From: Escherichia phage vB_EcoM_PHB13
Sequence record: MK573636
Strand: one strand, 5' to 3'
DNA: 64,000 nucleotides
This document shows positions 7,264-57,136 of the stretch, piece by piece. How positions within the stretch are numbered: the stretch's first letter is position 1; each line of letters opens with the position of its first letter. The position numbers and the translations under genes were made by a program. The notes beneath the pieces are model-generated. The model was not told the origin of the DNA and did no database searches. It saw only the letters and a program-made list of their open reading frames with translations.

Positions 7264-8256
7264 ATGACTAAAGCAAAAATCACCGTCTCTGACCGTAACG
7301 TTCAATGCCTGGATTCTGCGAAACAAATCAAACTGGCTAAACAGTGGGGAGAAGGTAAGTTTACTACCCGCGAAGCACTTGCGGCAGCATTTGGGGTATC
7401 TCGTCGTACTGCCTCCCGTGTATTACTGATTCAGAAAGACGCAGTAGCGGAAGGTCGCAAGGCACTAGAAAAACGTAAAGCACGCCGTAAAACAAGTAAA
7501 GGAAAAGGCGGTGAACGCGCAAAAAAGCCCGTGACTACTACCTCAAAAATCGTAGCCATAGCCTCAACTAAGTTTATTACTATTACATGCGGTGACATTG
7601 TTTATACTGCTGATCCATCACATGTTAACTTTAAGGAAGCACTGGAAGCAGTTAAGCAGAATGATTTTATTAAAGCAATTACGCTGATTGACATTAAGAA
7701 AGCGGTTGAAGTATATTATCACGGCGCTTTCCGTATCGAAAATGGTATTGTGTATTATCATAATATTGTTCTTGATAATAATCTGACTCGTCGAGTTGTT
7801 GAGTCTATTAAAGAGAATAAGCCATATACGCACTATCTGAACTTCTTTGAGAAGTGCAAGAAAAACCCTAGCCGTAAGGCGGTAGATCGTCTGTTTGACT
7901 TCTTAGAACACAACGACATTGAGATCGGGGAAGATGGTTGTTTCTATGCATGGAAACGTGTTGATGTTGATTATAAAGATTTCTTTACTCATACGTTTGA
8001 TAATAGCCCAGGGCGCACGGTTAAAATGAAGCGTAAAGACGTTGACCCAGATGATGATCGCACTTGCTCTAATGGCCTCCACGTTGCAGCGAAACACTAT
8101 ATTCCACACTATAGCGGTGGACGAGGCCGAATCATTAAATGCAAAGTTGATCCTCGTCACGTTGTAAGTATTCCGAAAGATTATGCGAATGCCAAAATGC
8201 GCTGTCATCGTTACTATGTGGTTGAAGATGTAACCGAAGGTTTTAGCCATTACTAA
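7264..8256 (+). CDS. rIIB: rIIB protein
   Basis: C-terminal half (KAVDRLFDFLEHNDIEI...CSNGLHVAAK...RHVVSIP...YYVVEDVTEGF) matches T4 rIIB; AGAGGA RBS favours ATG 7264 over 7255. Confidence 0.85.
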   Translation: MTKAKITVSDRNVQCLDSAKQIKLAKQWGEGKFTTREALAAAFGVSRRTASRVLLIQKDAVAEGRKALEKRKARRKTSKGKGGERAKKPVTTTSKIVAIASTKFITITCGDIVYTADPSHVNFKEALEAVKQNDFIKAITLIDIKKAVEVYYHGAFRIENGIVYYHNIVLDNNLTRRVVESIKENKPYTHYLNFFEKCKKNPSRKAVDRLFDFLEHNDIEIGEDGCFYAWKRVDVDYKDFFTHTFDNSPGRTVKMKRKDVDPDDDRTCSNGLHVAAKHYIPHYSGGRGRIIKCKVDPRHVVSIPKDYANAKMRCHRYYVVEDVTEGFSHY

Positions 8257-47637: not shown

Positions 47638-47949
47638 ATGAAATACATCGTAACGCTGCCAATGATTGACTTCGACGGAACCATGAACACCCAGAAGACC
47701 ATGAGCGCGGAGAACCAACTGAAAAACGCTACCCTGATTCGTGAAGTTCGCAAGGCACTGGCAAAAGAATTTAACACCAAAATTCATTCTGTAACTGGCG
47801 AACGTTTCGCGGATCATCTTGATATCAATATCAAACCAGTGCGCAACGGTGTTATCTCTGTAACAACCAACCGCCCACATGCTGACGCTGATAATCTGAC
47901 CGCTCGCGCAGAAGATGTAATTATGACCGTTATCATGGAAAAACTTTAA
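47638..47949 (+). CDS. hypothetical protein (103 aa)
   Basis: ORF after the cassette; shares A.R.VR.A.AKEFN.K with the 50954 ORF. Confidence 0.55.
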   Translation: MKYIVTLPMIDFDGTMNTQKTMSAENQLKNATLIREVRKALAKEFNTKIHSVTGERFADHLDINIKPVRNGVISVTTNRPHADADNLTARAEDVIMTVIMEKL

Positions 47950-47958
47950 AAAAAGTTG

Positions 47959-47988
47959 TTGACAGGGGAGGTTAAACTCCCCTATAAT
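47959..47988 (+). promoter_or_regulatory. early promoter with stem-loop (PeSL-like)
   Basis: TTGACA 47959-47964, stem GGGGAG-GTTAAA-CTCCCC, TATAAT 47983-47988. Confidence 0.6.
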
Positions 47989-48022
47989 ACACACATACCG
48001 AAACGAACTAGGAGAATCAATT

Positions 48023-48202
48023 ATGAACTTCAACGAAATCATCGCTAAAATCCGCTACAACGAAGAAACCATTGAACTGATGCAAAACAATATCACCAAT
48101 GGATATATGATTGCAGCGTCACAAGAAATCATTGATTTGACGGTAGCAGAAAATGCTCAGTTGAAACATCAACTTTCAACGGCTGGCGTGATTGTTATGT
48201 AA
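48023..48202 (+). CDS. hypothetical protein (59 aa)
   Basis: MNFNEIIAKIRYNEETIELMQ... after AGGAGAATCAATT-ATG. Confidence 0.45.
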   Translation: MNFNEIIAKIRYNEETIELMQNNITNGYMIAASQEIIDLTVAENAQLKHQLSTAGVIVM

Positions 48203-48786: not shown

Positions 48787-49095
48787 ATGGAACAAACTAA
48801 GCTATTTGTCGCGGAACCTTTTGTAAGAGACAATAAAAATCTGGCTAAAACAATCATTTTGTATTCGGATTGGATCTTTTATATCGATGGTAATTTAGAC
48901 GTATATTGTCGCACAGCTCCAACTGATTCGTTTTATATCGAAGAAAACGACACTCATAATCATTGGTATGATGGAAACGACAAAACCGAACTAGCTGTTG
49001 TCCTAGCGTCAGACGTAGAACCTGAAAACGCGGACAAAGTAGCAGACAAATTTATGAAGTACGCATATAAAGATAAAAATGAAGATGAAGAATAA
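48787..49095 (+). CDS. H-x-H-W family paralogue 2 (102 aa)
   Basis: ATG 48787; ...WIFYIDGNLDVY...DTHNHWYDGNDKTELAVVLASDV... Confidence 0.55.
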   Translation: MEQTKLFVAEPFVRDNKNLAKTIILYSDWIFYIDGNLDVYCRTAPTDSFYIEENDTHNHWYDGNDKTELAVVLASDVEPENADKVADKFMKYAYKDKNEDEE

Positions 49096-49102
49096 AAAGT
49101 TG

Positions 49103-49131
49103 TTGACAGGGGATCACCGATCCCCTATAAT
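49103..49131 (+). promoter_or_regulatory. early promoter with stem-loop (PeSL-like, GGGGATC family)
   Basis: TTGACA 49103-49108, stem GGGGATC-ACC-GATCCCC, TATAAT 49126-49131. Confidence 0.6.
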
Positions 49132-49165
49132 ACACACATACCAACGAGATATAGGAGAATCAAAA

Positions 49166-49333
49166 ATGTTCCAGACTAAAGCAGAATGCGAAGCATACAT
49201 TGTAGCAAACCACGGTGAAGACTACCTGAAATTCGATATCGTAGTAGCACAGAAGATCACCGGAATGGTTGCAAAATATCTGGGTGTTAAAGAAGGTTAC
49301 TATCCTAGCAACGCACCAGAAATTAACAAATAA
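49166..49333 (+). CDS. small protein (55 aa), copy 1 of a duplicated gene
   Basis: MFQTKAECEAYIVANHGEDYLKFDIVVAQKITGMVAKYLGVKEGYYPSNAPEINK; near-identical to 52424-52591. Confidence 0.6.
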   Translation: MFQTKAECEAYIVANHGEDYLKFDIVVAQKITGMVAKYLGVKEGYYPSNAPEINK

Positions 49334-52423: not shown

Positions 52424-52591
52424 ATGTTCGAGACTAAAGCAGCATGTGAAGCATATATCATTGAAACCCACGGCGAAGATTATCTGAAATTTGACATTGT
52501 AGTAGCACAGAAGATTGTAGGGATGGTTGCGAAATACCTCGGAGTTAAAGAAGGTTACTATCCAAGCAACGCACCGGAAATTAACAAATAA
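52424..52591 (+). CDS. small protein (55 aa), copy 2 of a duplicated gene
   Basis: MFETKAACEAYIIETHGEDYLKFDIVVAQKIVGMVAKYLGVKEGYYPSNAPEINK; about 90% amino-acid identity to 49166-49333. Confidence 0.6.
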   Translation: MFETKAACEAYIIETHGEDYLKFDIVVAQKIVGMVAKYLGVKEGYYPSNAPEINK

Positions 52592-52606
52592 TTTTTATAA
52601 AAAGTG

Positions 52607-52635
52607 TTGACAGGGGAGACACCCTCCCCTATAAT
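52607..52635 (+). promoter_or_regulatory. early promoter with stem-loop (PeSL-like)
   Basis: TTGACA 52607-52612, stem GGGGAG-ACACC-CTCCCC, TATAAT 52630-52635. Confidence 0.6.
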
Positions 52636-52675
52636 ACAACCATCAAGACGAGATACCACTTAGGAGAATCAAACA

Positions 52676-52927
52676 ATGGCTAACATCGAAACCGCAAAGA
52701 AAATCGCTAAAGACCTGAACGTTAAAGGCTTCCGTAAACTGAAATTACAGCGTGTACGCTACACCATCGGCAAACAGTGCTCTTTCATGAGCGAAGAAGT
52801 TGCTAACAGCCTCATTGATAACCTGATTGCGGCTGGCTGGGAAGTTGCGGATCTGAAAACTTGCCGCGAACTGGCTAACAAAGGTCTTTTAGATTCTGTT
52901 ACTATAAAACCAATGGGGGCAGCGTGA
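52676..52927 (+). CDS. hypothetical protein (83 aa), first gene of a coupled operon
   Basis: MANIETAKKIAKDL...; first 16 coding nt identical to the 54805 ORF; stop overlaps the next start (GTGA). Confidence 0.55.
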   Translation: MANIETAKKIAKDLNVKGFRKLKLQRVRYTIGKQCSFMSEEVANSLIDNLIAAGWEVADLKTCRELANKGLLDSVTIKPMGAA

Positions 52928-53169
52928 AAAGAAAATTAATTAAACGAAATAAGGAATTTTTGAATAACTGCATTAAGGTTGCTAATGGTTGGCCTTTGTT
53001 CCTCTTCCTTTATGATTGGTATTCTAAACAATCGGTAGAGGAAACACGACACTATAAGAAGATCAGAAAAGAATCATATACAAAACAAGGCCGCATTAAC
53101 GGACTTTACTTAATGTGGCACGGCAAAGAACCTTCTAAAATCTGTGTTGGATTAAAGGGGCGTATATGA
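52924..53169 (+). CDS. hypothetical basic protein (81 aa)
   Basis: GTG start overlapping the previous stop; its stop overlaps the next start (ATGA). Confidence 0.45.
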   Translation: MKRKLIKRNKEFLNNCIKVANGWPLFLFLYDWYSKQSVEETRHYKKIRKESYTKQGRINGLYLMWHGKEPSKICVGLKGRI

Positions 53170-53882
53170 AACAAAAATTAATATTCTGCAACTTTGACGG
53201 ATCGGGGATAATGGGGCTAGAATGGGCTAAAGCAGGTCATAAGGTGATCTGCTTTAATGCAGATGATGCCGACCACGGCACATACAAAAAGTATAATACC
53301 CGATTTGAACATCCAAACATTACATATGTAAACACATGGATTGATTTGGATTGGCTGGAAAGAGCAATGGACCTTGAATGGGGAAAACCAGATATTATCT
53401 TTGCATTCCCACCGTGCACCAATTTAGCTGTTAGTGGCGCTGCACACTTTGAACGAAAGAAACGAGAACAAGGACCATTAATTCAAGTTCATGATGTAAG
53501 GGCAGCTAAAATAACCGCTTATTTGGGCGAATGGTTAGAAGTTCCCTACATGATAGAGAATCCTGTAAGCGTTATCTCTAGCATGTGGCGTAAGCCTGAT
53601 TACATGTTCCACCCGTGGGAATATGGCGGTTATTTGCCGGAATATGATATACATCCTACGTTTCCTGAGTATATTGCCTCCCGTGATATGTACCCGAAAA
53701 AGACTTGCTTATGGACGGGACAAGGTTTTATAATGCCAGAAAAGAAACCTATACCGATTAATAAAGGGTACAGTAAACAGCATTCTAAGCTAGGCGGGAA
53801 AGGAACCAGAACAAAGACTATCAGGTCACTTACCCCGCGAGGATTCGCAAAGGCAGTATTTGAAGCCAATAAGGATCTATGA
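53166..53882 (+). CDS. cytosine-C5 methyltransferase-like catalytic core protein (238 aa)
   Basis: Motif I-like FCNFDGSGIMG, motif IV-like IIFAFPPCTNLAVSGA (Pro-Cys) and motif VI-like YMIENPVSV in DNA C5-MTase order; too short for a target-recognition domain. Confidence 0.5.
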   Translation: MKQKLIFCNFDGSGIMGLEWAKAGHKVICFNADDADHGTYKKYNTRFEHPNITYVNTWIDLDWLERAMDLEWGKPDIIFAFPPCTNLAVSGAAHFERKKREQGPLIQVHDVRAAKITAYLGEWLEVPYMIENPVSVISSMWRKPDYMFHPWEYGGYLPEYDIHPTFPEYIASRDMYPKKTCLWTGQGFIMPEKKPIPINKGYSKQHSKLGGKGTRTKTIRSLTPRGFAKAVFEANKDL

Positions 53883-54211
53883 TGGGATTGTTTAAGTATT
53901 CGCTAACGTCAAATTACGATAAACAAGGTCATTGCATCAGTTGCCCTGATTGTCGTAGCCATAACATCGAAAGCAAGATCACCGATCATATTGATGGACT
54001 TTGGTCGCCAGCAAGCGAGATAGAATACTATTGCGCTGATTGTGGAATTGTAGTAGCATATTGGGCATACGGATCATATGATCCTTACTTCCAGATGGGA
54101 GAGCGTTCAATCCCTGCTCTTATCTGGAGAATTAAGAACAATATCCGCCATTCATGGGATGAGTTCTTAAAAGATATTGATTTACGTGATGATCCATTCA
54201 GGAGACTATAA
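53879..54211 (+). CDS. zinc-ribbon protein (110 aa)
   Basis: CISCPDC ... CADCG: four-Cys zinc ribbon; start overlaps the previous stop (ATGA). Confidence 0.5.
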   Translation: MMGLFKYSLTSNYDKQGHCISCPDCRSHNIESKITDHIDGLWSPASEIEYYCADCGIVVAYWAYGSYDPYFQMGERSIPALIWRIKNNIRHSWDEFLKDIDLRDDPFRRL

Positions 54212-54212
54212 C

Positions 54213-54731
54213 ATGAACCGTTTGACGCCTAAACGCCGTTACTATACCAATACTAAAAACTTTGTCATCTCTGTTTATGAGGCGTGGTTAGAAGATGGCT
54301 ATATCAACATGAACCCAGATTACCAGCGTCCTTTGGTATGGGACACCGAAAACAAACGTATGTTTATCGAAAACCTGATTAATGATTTTCCGGTTGGTGC
54401 TATCGCAATGGCTAAGATTGATGATGGCTCTCGCTATGAGATCGAAATCGTGGACGGTAAACAGCGTTTAAACGCAATATTCTCCTTTATGAAAGATGAG
54501 TTTAGCATTGCTGGTAATGATGATTCTATGTTGTATTACAGTGATTTTACGCCAGCAGAAAAGCGACGTTTTCGCAATCTCGGACTACCCGCGATCATGA
54601 TGGAAGAGAGCACACGAGAAGATCGATTAGAATATTTCTACAAAACAAACTTTTTCGGTGTGCCTCAATCAGAAGATCATCGCCAGCATGTGATTGCATT
54701 ATTGCAAGATGAGCAATTAAAAAATAACTAA
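54213..54731 (+). CDS. DUF262 / ParB-like nuclease-domain protein (172 aa)
   Basis: NPDYQRPLVW...FIENLINDFPVGAI...EIVDGKQRLNAI matches the DUF262 hallmarks (YQR...W, DGQQR-like); ATG 54213 after GGAGA. Confidence 0.55.
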   Translation: MNRLTPKRRYYTNTKNFVISVYEAWLEDGYINMNPDYQRPLVWDTENKRMFIENLINDFPVGAIAMAKIDDGSRYEIEIVDGKQRLNAIFSFMKDEFSIAGNDDSMLYYSDFTPAEKRRFRNLGLPAIMMEESTREDRLEYFYKTNFFGVPQSEDHRQHVIALLQDEQLKNN

Positions 54732-54738
54732 AAAGTTG

Positions 54739-54768
54739 TTGACAGGGGGATCGGTGATCCCCTATAAT
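54739..54768 (+). promoter_or_regulatory. early promoter with stem-loop (PeSL-like, GGGGATC family)
   Basis: TTGACA 54739-54744, stem GGGGGATC-GGT-GATCCCC, TATAAT 54763-54768. Confidence 0.6.
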
Positions 54769-54804
54769 GCAAACATACCGAAACGAACTACTAAGGAGTA
54801 TCAA

Positions 54805-55017
54805 ATGGCTAACATCGAAATCATCATTACCGACGTAACTTATGACCGCATTAACGAAATCGGTACTGCTTTGCTAGAAGATGGAACAACTCGCACCATC
54901 AACTACGCAGAATACGTTGAAATGCGCGGTTGTATTAAACGAGTAGGAAAATATATCCTGATTGAAAAAGACTATTCAGGATACACATTAGAGCAATTGC
55001 TCGATGGTGCATTATAA
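54805..55017 (+). CDS. hypothetical protein (70 aa)
   Basis: MANIEIIITDVTYDRINEIG... after TAAGGAGTATCAA-ATG. Confidence 0.55.
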   Translation: MANIEIIITDVTYDRINEIGTALLEDGTTRTINYAEYVEMRGCIKRVGKYILIEKDYSGYTLEQLLDGAL

Positions 55018-55084: not shown

Positions 55085-57136
55085 ATGTTTAACTTAGAAA
55101 TCGACGATCTAATGATTGAATCTTTCGAGAAATGGCTGTTGACGGAAGAGGAAGAAAACTTTGGCAGTATTGCTCCGGTACAGTGCTTAAAGCCTAAGCA
55201 GAATCCTAAACAGCTTTTTGCAGTACAGACACGCGATAAAGATGTGATTGTCCGTCTTTGTAACTTCACCAACAAAACACCTAAAATCATTCGTATGGGT
55301 GACAAGACCGCACATGTTGTACTGTGCGAAATGAACAAAAGCGGTCGTATTGTACAGCTTAAAAATGGTCTAGGCGATAACCCGATTGCAGTTATGGCAA
55401 GTGCTTTTGATGTGGTTATGGAAACAGCCCGTAAAGCGCAATTAGACGCTGTTATGTTCCGTTTTAACGTATCCCGCATGAAAGGTAAGACCGAACTGGT
55501 TAAGCGCGTTATAGAGCGTTTGGTGCGTCGTACACCGAAGTTTGAAGTATTCCAGCAGGAAGTAATGACCAGCAAAAAGATCGCTTTAGTTGTTGTCAAG
55601 CGTCGAGGTATGGCGATTGATAAGATTAAAGGGATTAAACTTGATGAATCCTTGTTCACTAAAGTAGAAAGTGATTTAGGTGATCGCTGGGTATCTAAAG
55701 CTACTGGCGAATCTCTGACTAAAGATGAAGCATATGCGGCTAGTCTTGTGTCAGAAGAAGAACGAAACGCGGAAGCAGAACAACGCGTAGCGGCTAAATC
55801 TCGTTTGACTAAAGAAGAAATGCTGAAAACTCAAGCGACCTATAACAGCGACTATGTGAATCATCCAGAAAAAATTAATCTTAAACCGGAAGAAGATATC
55901 ACCGAAGCAGAACCTAAGAAACAGTTTAATACTCTGATTGACCGTCAAGCCTTAGAACGTTCAACCGCCCGTTCTCTGAATGACTGGACAAGTGATATTA
56001 TCACTCGCTATGGTTTCATGCGTACTATTTTTGAAAGCGAAGCCGATGCAAAATACGCAGTAAGCGAACTGGTAAAAGTTCAGGACCAATATGATCCGTT
56101 GTCTGCGGAAGTTATCGCAGCATCAATCAAACGCTTAAAAGAAATCATGAGCGAGGAAGTATTCGAAAACAAGATCACTGCGTTGGCAATGGATCGAGTA
56201 GACCAGTCTATGCCAGCAGATGTAAAAGCTGAAATGCTGCGTAGTCATATCACACAGATTAAAACCGATGCCCTTCGTAATGTTGCCTCCGGTATGTTTG
56301 AAGCAATTGCAAGTAACATGGGTGAAATGATGGCAGATATTGATCTTGACCTACCAGGCGCGGAAGGTTTTGTGTTGAGCGAATATGCGGATGCAGCATA
56401 CATCAATATGAACAACTTCCTAACCGATCGTAAGCTGGATGAGTTCGAAGGGATCGCTGACCCAGAAGAATTGGTCAAGATGTGCGACGCACTGGATAAT
56501 GCCTTCGCTAACTATGGCGTTAAACTTGATCCGGGTACTATTCTGTATCGTGGTATGGACTTCCGGTCTCAAATGTGGGAAACTGCACGTAAGCAAAAAG
56601 CGTTTTACTTTAAAAACTATGTGAGCACTTCCCTTGCACCTAACATTTTTGGCGGCTGGAATGCAAACGTGGCTAGTGCCGTTGCTGGTGTTGATTCTAT
56701 GGCTGGCTCTCGCGGTGAAGGTGGCGCGAATGTTGCTTTCTCCATTGCTGGCGCGGAAAACATCCCTGTATTGCCAGTAGGTAACAAAGCATTTGCTTAC
56801 AAAGAATGCGAGATTTTACTTCCTCGCGGTGTTGTGTTATCCTTTGATACGGTAACTCGTGCTACGGCATCGACGGATTCACAAGAAACATATTACATTG
56901 AGGCACATATTATGAACAAAAGTGAACTGGCAGCATTACAAGAATCTGGCGAAATGATCGCGGATGGTGATGCATTCATCCGTGAAGGTGTTGTTAAACC
57001 TGCTTCTGACCTGTCTTTCTCCAGATTCATTACAGAAGCTAAAACCGAACGTAAGAAAGCAGATAAGGCAACTCTACGTCAGCTTATCGCTGATCTGGTG
57101 TCTGTAGACGCAATGCCAGATAAATTTAAAATGTAA
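55085..57136 (+). CDS. alt: Alt ADP-ribosyltransferase (683 aa)
   Basis: Length equals T4 Alt (682 aa); catalytic region LYRG...YVSTSL...ECEILLPRG (R / STS / E-x-E) and C-terminus ...PDKFKM match T4 Alt (...PLKFVM). Confidence 0.85.
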   Translation: MFNLEIDDLMIESFEKWLLTEEEENFGSIAPVQCLKPKQNPKQLFAVQTRDKDVIVRLCNFTNKTPKIIRMGDKTAHVVLCEMNKSGRIVQLKNGLGDNPIAVMASAFDVVMETARKAQLDAVMFRFNVSRMKGKTELVKRVIERLVRRTPKFEVFQQEVMTSKKIALVVVKRRGMAIDKIKGIKLDESLFTKVESDLGDRWVSKATGESLTKDEAYAASLVSEEERNAEAEQRVAAKSRLTKEEMLKTQATYNSDYVNHPEKINLKPEEDITEAEPKKQFNTLIDRQALERSTARSLNDWTSDIITRYGFMRTIFESEADAKYAVSELVKVQDQYDPLSAEVIAASIKRLKEIMSEEVFENKITALAMDRVDQSMPADVKAEMLRSHITQIKTDALRNVASGMFEAIASNMGEMMADIDLDLPGAEGFVLSEYADAAYINMNNFLTDRKLDEFEGIADPEELVKMCDALDNAFANYGVKLDPGTILYRGMDFRSQMWETARKQKAFYFKNYVSTSLAPNIFGGWNANVASAVAGVDSMAGSRGEGGANVAFSIAGAENIPVLPVGNKAFAYKECEILLPRGVVLSFDTVTRATASTDSQETYYIEAHIMNKSELAALQESGEMIADGDAFIREGVVKPASDLSFSRFITEAKTERKKADKATLRQLIADLVSVDAMPDKFKM

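What the first reader, a model, noticed from the sequence alone, without database searches (positions are those of the whole stretch)
52676..54731. Coupled operon: C5-methyltransferase-like core, zinc ribbon and DUF262/ParB-like protein
Five ORFs (52676, 52924, 53166, 53879, 54213) are joined by overlapping stop/start codons (GTGA, ATGA, ATGA) or a 1-nt gap, and the block sits between two stem-loop promoter cassettes (52607, 54739). The 238-aa protein carries cytosine-C5 methyltransferase motifs in the DNA-MTase order (FxGxG-like, Pro-Cys, ENP) but is too short for a target-recognition domain. The last protein has the DUF262 signature (YQR...W and DGKQR), the domain found at the N-terminus of GmrSD-type modification-dependent restriction enzymes, but no HNH/DUF1524 nuclease partner is visible. 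I do not recall such a trio in T4; it could be a DNA-modification, anti-restriction or inter-phage exclusion module.
Basis: partly seen in the sequence, partly recalled or inferred. Interest (0 to 1): 0.8.

Follow-up and report, generated by a model that had tools for sequence, protein, structure and literature searches.

The report
Early accessory gene cassette, RB49-like phage
This is an ordinary, already-annotated cassette of five small early genes in an RB49-like (Krischvirus) coliphage: it holds a compact but complete cytosine-C5 DNA methyltransferase from a family with one active phage member, and a stand-alone ParB-like DUF262 protein of unknown role, and these genes travel separately in other phages, so they are not a three-part system.

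Summary
Five + strand ORFs (52676-54731) are joined by GTGA/ATGA/ATGA overlaps and a 1-nt gap. They lie between two perfect TTGACA-hairpin-TATAAT cassettes, which are the published PeSL elements of RB49/phi1.

The window is a Krischvirus, 96-97% identical to RB49, TB34 and others, and the block is RB49p190-p187.

The 238-aa protein belongs to a large family of short phage Dcm enzymes (phrog_757; 1519 phage records). It is 55% identical over its full length to a Hanrivervirus enzyme whose close relative, K42 Dcm, makes 5mC and triggers retron Ec86. FxGSG, PPC, ENP and KK are conserved. The model matches DNMT3B, DNMT3A and M.HhaI, with a compact conserved insert where the target-recognition domain normally sits.

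The 172-aa protein is a complete DUF262/ParB-fold nucleotide-binding domain with no nuclease. It belongs to a family of about 170-aa stand-alone proteins in T4-like phages and lambdoid prophages.

In 160 IMG/VR loci, Dcm, zinc ribbon and DUF262 were neighbours only in Krischvirus. The "functional trio" reading is therefore not supported. Krischvirus TB34 DNA, which carries the same block, is reported as unmodified in bulk, so this is not a hypermodification module. Interest is low; the DUF262-only protein is the one open question.

The parts
52583..52675 (+). PeSL cassette: A-rich upstream region, TTGACA (52607), GGGGAG-ACACC-CTCCCC hairpin in the 17-nt spacer, TATAAT (to 52635), leader, AGGAG RBS
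   Evidence: element type described for RB49/phi1 in PMC2839356
52676..52927 (+). orf1, 83 aa, Krischvirus-restricted ORFan (RB49p190; phrog_14908)
   Evidence: tblastn finds it in 56 phage records, all at least 95% identical
52924..53169 (+). orf2, 81 aa, unknown function (RB49p189.1; phrog_7065). Found in 48 Krischvirus-level records plus 123 distant ones. Precisely absent from one IMG/VR Krischvirus contig.
53166..53882 (+). Short Dcm-family cytosine-C5 DNA methyltransferase, 238 aa (RB49p189; phrog_757). Motif I F10-G12-S13-G14, motif IV P82-P83-C84, motif VI E131-N132-P133, K178-K179, RSLTPRG 220-226.
   Evidence: experimental homologue
53879..54211 (+). CxxC...CxxC zinc-ribbon protein, 110 aa (RB49p188; phrog_2993), unknown function. 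Distant homologues in Nonagvirus 9g and Felixounavirus.
54213..54731 (+). Stand-alone DUF262 / ParB-Srx-fold nucleotide-binding domain protein, 172 aa (RB49p187; phrog_1583). Invariant Y37-Q38-R39, W43, D81-G82-x-Q84-R85, F142, N146-F147-x-G149, Q152, H156.
54715..54804 (+). PeSL cassette: TTGACA (54739), GGGGGATC-GGT-GATCCCC hairpin in the 18-nt spacer, TATAAT (to 54768), leader, AGGAG RBS. It ends this transcription unit and starts the next.

Best explanation
The region is one PeSL-bounded early transcription unit in the hyperplastic region upstream of alt in an RB49-like Krischvirus. It is a mosaic of five independently acquired accessory genes, not a dedicated multi-protein system. Host sigma-70 RNA polymerase starts at the 52607 promoter right after infection, and the tightly packed ORFs are translated from one mRNA (inferred from sequence). 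Gene 3 is an orphan, compact Dcm-family C5 methyltransferase. It uses AdoMet and Cys84 to place 5-methylcytosine at a short specific site. That site is most likely CCWGG or a related CCNGG-type site, read by the conserved ~75-residue insert between motifs VIII and IX. The result is sparse 5mC that protects the few remaining sites from EcoRII/SsoII-type restriction. The activity is inferred from a 55%-identical enzyme shown to make 5mC; the specificity is inferred and not shown. Gene 5 is a minimal DUF262/ParB-fold nucleotide-binding module with no nuclease or DNA-binding domain. My best guess is an NTP-dependent dimerising switch used in host takeover or counter-defence, for example by pairing with and poisoning DUF262-containing host nucleases. 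I put this at about 0.3 within the overall explanation; it is entirely inferred. The zinc ribbon and the two small ORFs have no assignable function.
For: Identity and context: 96-97% nt identity to RB49, TB34, G37-3 and others; the block is RB49p190-p187, upstream of alt. PeSLs were described as promoter-terminator recombination cassettes flanking ORFans in RB49/phi1 (PMC2839356), and four such cassettes align in the window.

Site pressure: CCWGG is the most depleted of 16 NNWNN palindromes (O/E 0.39; 26 sites against 50.7 +/- 6.5 in shuffles).

Sparse rather than bulk modification: TB34, with the same block, has no detectable modified nucleosides.

Mosaic: the five genes occur in 56, 171, 1519, 181 and 323 phage records respectively, with no adjacency outside Krischvirus. 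Indels occur inside the block.

DUF262: PF03235 at 4e-20; AF2 pLDDT 92; fold matches to ParB, Noc, PadC, KorB, BrxU and SspE; profile hits to DUF262 nuclease structures; 1024 relatives of about 170 aa. In prophages it lies between recT and ea22/xis/int, in a lytic-phase accessory region. DUF262-only GmrS1 is required together with GmrSD2 in an E. coli type IV system, though a physical complex there is only suggested.
Against: No activity or specificity was measured for the Krischvirus enzyme. Its own Pfam score for DNA_methylase (14 bits) is below the gathering cut-off of 22, and neither the sequence nor a profile of it finds any PDB sequence. In the K42 study CCWGG was assumed from E. coli Dcm and supported only by mutating the msDNA site. 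Conservation of the five-gene order in about 56 Krischvirus genomes, with coupled translation, is compatible with cooperation; these genomes are too similar to count as independent evidence either way. The proposed role of the DUF262 protein has no direct support. Its invariant NTP-binding residues would also fit an enzymatic role.
Confidence: 0.7

Rival explanations
1. The MTase, zinc ribbon and DUF262 protein form one functional module. Either the small partners supply DNA targeting or processivity to a minimal MTase, or they neutralise the liabilities of carrying a Dcm: type IV restriction of 5mC DNA, or activation of retron Ec86.
For: ATGA overlaps and a 1-nt gap give coupled translation. 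The order is kept in about 56 Krischvirus records. A 55%-identical Dcm triggers retron Ec86, which BL21(DE3) carries natively, yet Krischvirus phages are propagated on E. coli B. GmrSD-family enzymes such as BrxU contain the same DUF262 domain.
Against: None of 78 non-Krischvirus loci with a Dcm relative has a zinc-ribbon or DUF262 relative within 8 kb, and none of 78 non-Krischvirus loci with a DUF262 relative has a Dcm or zinc-ribbon relative within 8 kb. The homologous Dcm works when expressed alone in E. coli. In RB43, Miro and ST64B the DUF262 gene has unrelated neighbours. Phage kaaroe has an extra ORF between the zinc-ribbon and DUF262 genes. Such overlaps are the norm in these early regions.
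Confidence: 0.12
2. The block is the missing route to cytosine hypermodification in Krischvirus: an MTase-initiated, post-replicative pathway to hmC and glycosyl-hmC, as reported for phage SAP.
For: A 2026 study reports 5-hmdC and gentiobiosyl-hmdC in Krischvirus SAP with no known synthase or glucosyltransferase genes. MTase-first pathways exist in other phages (my own knowledge).
Against: The block is 100% identical in SAP and in TB34, whose DNA has only canonical cytosines. None of the five proteins hits a dioxygenase or glycosyltransferase family. The SAP modification profile matches seven Tequatrovirus phages of the same collection, so a mixed preparation is a simpler explanation (my inference).
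Confidence: 0.02
3. The 238-aa protein is a degenerate or repurposed MTase fold that no longer methylates DNA, for example a DNA-binding or RNA-directed protein.
For: The Pfam match is below threshold and covers only residues 10-100. There are no NCBIfam hits. The protein is about 90 residues shorter than M.HhaI.
Confidence: 0.05

Closest known systems
Phage K42 / KarlJaspers-type Dcm (Drexlerviridae, 711-bp gene), the trigger of retron Ec86 (bioRxiv 10.1101/2023.08.16.553469)
   Same: Same length class (236 vs 238 aa). 55% identity over the full length to the Hanrivervirus aaroes orthologue. Same FxGSG, PPC, ENP and KK residues. Same DNMT3-like predicted fold.
   Different: Different phage family and genomic neighbours (a helicase region in siphoviruses). 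Activity, specificity and any retron triggering are untested for the Krischvirus enzyme.
Canonical bacterial C5 MTases (M.HhaI, E. coli Dcm; Pfam PF00145)
   Different: About 90 residues shorter. The large TRD is replaced by a compact, highly conserved ~75-residue insert. ENP replaces ENV. The sequence is below the Pfam gathering score. There is no cognate restriction enzyme nearby, so it is an orphan.
DNMT3A/DNMT3B catalytic domains
   Different: 13-17% identity. Eukaryotic regulatory domains and oligomerisation partners are absent.
GmrSD / BrxU / SspE modification-dependent nucleases
   Same: N-terminal DUF262 domain with the (Y/F)QR..VW and DG(K/Q)QR motifs.
   Different: No DUF1524/HNH nuclease domain and no partner gene encoding one. 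At 172 aa the protein is only the NTPase-like module.
ParB / Noc / PadC / KorB CTP-switch N-domains
   Same: Same ParB/Srx fold by Foldseek (E 6e-4 to 5e-3, probability 1.0, TM about 0.43-0.49).
   Different: No HTH DNA-binding domain and no C-terminal dimerisation domain. It carries the DUF262 motif set rather than the GERRxR box.
PeSL promoter-early stem-loop cassettes of RB49/phi1 (Arbiol et al. 2010, PMC2839356)
   Same: Consensus sigma-70 hexamers, a GGGG...CCCC stem-loop, an A-rich upstream tract and a position flanking ORFans.
   Different: None noted; these are the same elements in a close relative.

Membership tests
Cytosine-C5 DNA methyltransferase (PF00145 superfamily) | Motif I FxGxG AdoMet-binding loop | tested here: met
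   F10-D-G12-S13-G14; each at least 90% conserved in 91 homologues
Cytosine-C5 DNA methyltransferase (PF00145 superfamily) | Motif IV Pro-Cys with the catalytic cysteine | tested here: met
   P82-P83-C84 invariant in 91 sequences; corresponds to C82 of K42 Dcm
Cytosine-C5 DNA methyltransferase (PF00145 superfamily) | Motif VI ENV glutamate | tested here: met
   E131-N132-P133 invariant; the ENP variant; corresponds to E128 of K42 Dcm
Cytosine-C5 DNA methyltransferase (PF00145 superfamily) | Score above the Pfam gathering threshold | tested here: not met
   14.0 bits against a cut-off of 22, E 0.034, residues 10-100 only. 6 of 25 homologues match with a best E of 1.3e-6.
Cytosine-C5 DNA methyltransferase (PF00145 superfamily) | C5-MTase three-dimensional fold | tested here: met
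Cytosine-C5 DNA methyltransferase (PF00145 superfamily) | Target-recognition domain between motifs VIII and IX | tested here: inconclusive
   Only about 75 residues (143-220) lie there, but they are highly conserved (GGYL, RDxYPKKT, W183, LGGK, KTKxIRSLTPRG). A compact TRD as in DNMT3 is inferred, not shown.
Cytosine-C5 DNA methyltransferase (PF00145 superfamily) | Methyl transfer to cytosine C5 in DNA | not testable with these tools
   Shown by LC-MS only for the homologous K42 Dcm
Short phage Dcm family (phrog_757 / K42 Dcm type) | Full-length homology and the same size class | tested here: met
   phrog_757 E 1.6e-90, residues 1-237; 55% identity, E 3e-89, to the 236-aa aaroes gp12
Short phage Dcm family (phrog_757 / K42 Dcm type) | CCWGG specificity | not testable with these tools
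   Assumed rather than mapped even for K42. The only indirect support here is CCWGG depletion, O/E 0.39.
Type II restriction-modification system | Cognate restriction endonuclease gene next to the MTase | tested here: not met
   No nuclease family is hit by any of the five proteins or the flanking ORFs, so the MTase is an orphan
[quoted passage not shown] | N-terminal DUF262 (GmrSD_N) domain | tested here: met
   PF03235 E 4.4e-20, 73 bits against a cut-off of 33.2
[quoted passage not shown] | C-terminal DUF1524/HNH nuclease domain, or an adjacent gene for one | tested here: not met
   The protein ends at residue 172 after two helices. There are no nuclease hits in the block or flanks. The whole small family is 160-190 aa.
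ParB/Srx-fold NTP-binding domain | Fold similarity to ParB-N CTPase domains | tested here: met
   Foldseek: ParB 7bm8 E 6e-4, then PadC, Noc, KorB, BrxU, SspE; model pLDDT 92
ParB/Srx-fold NTP-binding domain | Nucleotide binding or hydrolysis | not testable with these tools
   Only conservation of the YQR and DGxQR motifs is seen
MTase-TET-glycosyltransferase hypermodification cluster | TET/JBP dioxygenase and glycosyltransferase next to the C5-MTase | tested here: not met
   No such domains in the block. TB34, with an identical block, has unmodified DNA.
PeSL cassette (Arbiol 2010) | Consensus sigma-70 promoter plus G/C stem-loop plus A-rich upstream tract, flanking ORFans | tested here: met
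   definition

The most novel reading that the evidence does not exclude
The stand-alone DUF262 protein, possibly with the zinc ribbon, is a new kind of phage counter-defence. It would be a nucleotide-dependent 'poison subunit' that pairs with the DUF262 domains of host nucleases (GmrSD/BrxU, PD-T4-2, Nsn, SspE types). Alternatively it disarms the retron Ec86 response that a phage Dcm provokes. In Krischvirus it would be coupled to dcm to offset the cost of carrying 5mC.
Probability: 0.1. Interest if true: 0.6.

Novelty: new member of a known kind. Interest (0 to 1): 0.22.

Why it matters
As it stands this matters little. The block is a conserved, already-annotated part of RB49-type genomes, and its most striking gene belongs to an MTase family with an experimentally active member.

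Two modest points are useful:

- The 'TRD-less' look of these roughly 235-aa phage Dcm enzymes should not be read as loss of function. The family is very large (over 7000 clusters, 1519 phage genomes) and has a compact, conserved recognition insert.
- About a thousand stand-alone DUF262 proteins of roughly 170 aa in T4-like phages and lambdoid prophages have no known role. If they interfere with DUF262-based host nucleases they would be a new anti-defence class. This locus, next to a dcm gene in a phage grown on E. coli B, is a convenient place to test that.

The analysis also shows that this block cannot explain the reported hmC-type modification of Krischvirus SAP.

Tried and rejected
- Sequence searches of the 238-aa protein and of its 91-sequence profile against PDB sequences found nothing. 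Only fold comparison linked it to solved MTases.
- NCBIfam gave no hit for four of the five proteins.
- The zinc-ribbon protein gave only sub-threshold Pfam/NCBIfam hits (TFIIB ribbon E 0.0045, Lar 0.66, ECs_2282 0.018). Its 9g homologue likewise gave only ZPR1 at 0.053. No function could be assigned.
- I tested whether the roughly 110-aa ORFs upstream of the DUF262 genes of RB43 and Miro are zinc ribbons. They are not: they have no Cys pairs and carry a hydrophobic C-terminus.
- I tested whether the extra 59-aa ORF of kaaroe matches the 59-aa ORF that follows the zinc ribbon in phage 9g. There is no similarity.
- The apparent 0.9-1.1 kb 'insertions' in some megablast hits (H15, H20, H29) turned out, where inspected (H15), to be joined matches to a neighbouring PeSL, not insertions in the block.
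- The PADLOC hit of orf1 to RT_UG35 (E 2.6e-5, 64 residues of a 938-position model) was judged uninformative.
- The word-indexed search with the single DUF262 sequence found only 2 clusters. A 5-sequence profile was needed to reach 1024.
- I looked for a 5mC deamination signature, an excess of CTWGG/CCWAG. None is present (O/E 0.59), so CCWGG depletion looks selective rather than mutational. General CTAG avoidance confounds this test.
Full report
**What the window is.** Region 52600-54800 is 96-97% identical at the nucleotide level to 58 phage records, all RB49-like members of the genus Krischvirus (RB49, phi1, JSE, TB34, SAP, G37-3 and others). In RB49 the five ORFs are RB49p190, p189.1, p189 ('DNA methyltransferase'), p188 and p187. 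They lie upstream of the alt ADP-ribosyltransferase gene, which in this window starts at 55085. Other records already label the third gene 'Dcm' or 'C-5 cytosine DNA methylase' and the fifth 'DUF262 domain protein'.

**The observation.**
- The five + strand ORFs, their GTGA/ATGA/ATGA overlaps and the 1-nt gap are exactly as described.
- The flanking elements at 52607 and 54739 are the only perfect sigma-70 matches in the region.
- Each carries a GGGG...CCCC hairpin inside the -35/-10 spacer, with z-scores of -4.0 and -2.5 against shuffles.
- TTGACA-N15-19-TATAAT occurs 11 times in the window against 0.15 expected.
- Four of these share an A-rich upstream tract, the hairpin, a leader of about 25 nt and an AGGAG RBS.
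- These are the 'promoter-early stem-loop' (PeSL) cassettes described for RB49 and phi1. There they act as promoter-terminator units flanking ORFans and as substrates for modular shuffling (PMC2839356).
- There is no strong internal promoter or terminator, so the block is plausibly one early transcript. That is inferred.
- Overlapping stop/start codons are the rule in such regions of RB43, Miro and TB34. They say little about functional linkage.

**The 238-aa protein.**
- Its own Pfam match to DNA_methylase is below threshold (14 bits against 22; residues 10-100), and NCBIfam finds nothing.
- It matches PHROG 757 'DNA methyltransferase' end to end (E 1.6e-90).
- It has 7183 relatives in the 5.8-billion-protein collection, nearly all 225-250 aa.
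- It has 1176 representatives at 50% clustering and hits in 1519 phage genomes: Drexlerviridae, Dhillonvirus, Vequintavirinae, Webervirus and others.
- In a 91-sequence alignment, P82-P83-C84, E131-N132-P133 and K178 are among the invariant residues. F10, G12, S13, G14 and R142 are at least 90% conserved.
- Six of 25 homologues reach PF00145, with a best E of 1.3e-6.
- The AlphaFold model is confident (pLDDT 90).

**Experimental anchor for the MTase.** A preprint on retron Ec86 studied the 711-bp dcm gene of Drexlerviridae phage K42 (KarlJaspers type). It is the trigger of the retron, and its expression raises 5mC in msDNA by LC-MS. A C82A/E128A/K175A/K176A mutant does not raise 5mC. A 2026 paper restates this. 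The Hanrivervirus aaroes gene of the same length carries C82, E128, K175 and K176 at exactly those positions. It is 55% identical to the window protein over the full length (E 3e-89). The equivalent residues here are C84, E131, K178 and K179.

**Reading of the MTase.** The protein is therefore a member of a known, active family of compact phage Dcm enzymes. It is not truly TRD-less. Residues 143-220, between the WRK (motif VIII-like) and RSLTPRG (motif IX/X-like) segments, are the most conserved stretch of the family, and DNMT3 enzymes have similarly small recognition loops. I infer this stretch is the recognition module. Its specificity is unknown. In the K42 work CCWGG was assumed and supported only by mutating the msDNA site.

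**Indirect evidence on the target site.**
- CCWGG is the most depleted of the 16 NNWNN palindromes in the window (O/E 0.39; the next lowest is 0.90).
- CCSGG is depleted too (O/E 0.23).
- There are 26 CCWGG sites against 50.7 +/- 6.5 in shuffles.
- This fits selection by EcoRII/SsoII-type enzymes, with the MTase protecting the remaining sites.
- No excess of the deamination products is seen.
- Sparse site-specific methylation also fits the report that Krischvirus TB34 DNA has no detectable modified nucleosides by HPLC-MS.

**The 172-aa protein.**
- It is a clear DUF262 domain (PF03235, E 4e-20) with YQRPLVW and DGKQR.
- The single-sequence search found only two clusters. A five-sequence profile found 1024 proteins, almost all 160-190 aa and all carrying only PF03235.
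- These come from T4-like phages (RB43, RB16, Lw1, Slopekvirus such as Miro and Matisse, JC221, POP12, Phynn, vB_Mm5) and from enterobacterial prophages.
- In ST64B and Salmonella prophages the gene lies between recT and the ea22/xis/int genes. By analogy with lambda, that is a lytic-phase accessory region.
- Invariant residues in 86 sequences are Y37, Q38, R39, W43, P60, D81, G82, Q84, R85, F142, N146, F147, G149, Q152 and H156.
- The model (pLDDT 92) matches ParB, Noc, PadC and KorB nucleotide-binding N-domains, and also BrxU and SspE. The profile hits solved DUF262 nucleases.
- PADLOC's best matches are longer defence proteins: NsnA at 1e-20 and PD-T4-2_A at 5e-12.
- There is no nuclease domain in the protein, and no nuclease gene beside it here or in RB43, Miro, ST64B or Klebsiella prophages.
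- It is not a GmrSD enzyme. It is a minimal NTP-binding module.

**My best guess for the DUF262 protein.** I favour a nucleotide-dependent dimerising switch used for host takeover or counter-defence, for instance by pairing with DUF262 domains of host nucleases. This rests on three things: its position in lytic accessory regions, the invariant nucleotide-binding motifs, and the published finding that a DUF262-only GmrS1 is required together with GmrSD2. It is inference only.

**The other three genes.**
- orf1 is restricted to Krischvirus (56 records, all at least 95% identical).
- orf2 occurs in 48 close and 123 distant records.
- The CxxC...CxxC zinc ribbon (phrog_2993) has distant relatives in Nonagvirus 9g, Felixounavirus and others, with unrelated neighbours.
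- No family hit reaches a curated threshold.

**Is it a trio?** I fetched 80 IMG/VR loci with a DUF262 relative and 80 with a Dcm relative, each with up to +/-8 kb (less where the contig ended), and searched them with all five proteins. In both sets only the two Krischvirus contigs contained any of the other genes. Within Krischvirus the block itself varies:
- Phage kaaroe has an extra 59-aa ORF between the zinc-ribbon and DUF262 genes.
- One IMG/VR contig lacks orf2 precisely, has a different 5' part of orf1, and joins directly to dcm.
- The gene downstream of the 54739 PeSL differs between this window and TB34.

The K42-type Dcm works when expressed alone.

**Hypermodification.** A 2026 study reports that Krischvirus SAP carries hmC and gentiobiosyl-hmC with no known pathway, while TB34, 99.96% identical, has canonical DNA. 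The block is 100% identical in the two phages and has no dioxygenase or glycosyltransferase, so it does not explain that puzzle. The only local difference is a 79-bp tandem duplication of the PeSL just after the DUF262 gene in SAP.

**Verdict.** This is a real and correctly described gene block that is ordinary. It is a PeSL-bounded early accessory cassette, already present and annotated in RB49-type genomes. It contains an orphan compact Dcm-family methyltransferase (a known kind with an experimentally active relative), a stand-alone DUF262 domain protein (a known domain in an uncharacterised small family) and three small proteins of unknown function. The 'module' interpretation is not supported. 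The residual interest lies in the role of the DUF262-only family and in how a Dcm-carrying phage copes with retron Ec86 or type IV enzymes.

Noticed in passing
window 47935-48060, 49079-49204, 52583-52708, 54715-54840: Four GGGG...CCCC PeSL cassettes align well beyond the promoter. They share a leader of about 25 nt (ACACACATACCGAAACGAACT), the RBS AGGAG(A/T)ATCAA and, for the 52607 and 54739 copies, the first five codons of the downstream ORF (ATGGCTAACATCGAA = MANIE). The recombination homology therefore reaches into coding sequence.
   Followed up: partly
window, whole 64 kb: CCWGG is the most depleted of all 16 NNWNN palindromes (O/E 0.39 by 3rd-order Markov; 26 sites against 50.7 +/- 6.5 in shuffles). 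CCSGG is at O/E 0.23, so CCNGG as a whole is avoided. CTWGG/CCWAG is not in excess (0.59).
   Followed up: partly
L178 (phage SAP) 6120-6280 vs L001 (phage TB34) 6120-6200; equivalent to window ~54720-54800: SAP has a 79-bp tandem duplication of the PeSL cassette directly after the DUF262 gene, and TB34 has one copy. The five-gene block is otherwise 100% identical in the two phages. They are reported to differ in cytosine modification (PMC13390438).
   Followed up: partly
L097 (IMGVR_UViG_3300045988_033703) 7657-8001; equivalent to window 52676-53169: This Krischvirus contig lacks orf2 entirely and has a different 5' part of orf1. The orf1 stop overlaps the dcm start directly. The junction lies in the similar 5' ends of orf2 (GTGAAAAGAAAATTAAT, MKRKLI) and dcm (ATGAAACAAAAATTAAT, MKQKLI), which suggests deletion or insertion by short-homology recombination.
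   Followed up: partly
L015 (phage kaaroe) 2833-3012; between the equivalents of window 54211 and 54213: Phage kaaroe carries an extra 59-aa ORF between the zinc-ribbon and DUF262 genes, overlapping both. It has no similarity to the 59-aa ORF that follows the zinc-ribbon homologue in phage 9g.
   Followed up: yes
window 54805-55017 vs L001 6202-6381: The small gene downstream of the 54739 PeSL differs between this window (70 aa, MANIEIIITDV...) and TB34/SAP/RB49 (59 aa, MKHLTIES...). This is a replacement across a PeSL, as the modular-shuffling model predicts.
   Followed up: no
literature: PMC13390438, with host lines of Krischvirus records: Krischvirus SAP is reported with the same hmC/gentiobiosyl-hmC profile as seven Tequatrovirus phages of the same collection, although it lacks the pathway genes. 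A mixed lysate seems possible. Separately, Krischvirus phages carrying this dcm are propagated on E. coli B, whose derivative BL21(DE3) carries the Dcm-triggered retron Ec86.
   Followed up: no
window 53166 vs 53211 (Met16): GenBank records disagree on the dcm start. RB49 notes an alternative GeneMark start, and kaaroe annotates the shorter 672-nt form. The short form would delete motif I (FDGSG). Family alignments support the long form starting at 53166.
   Followed up: yes
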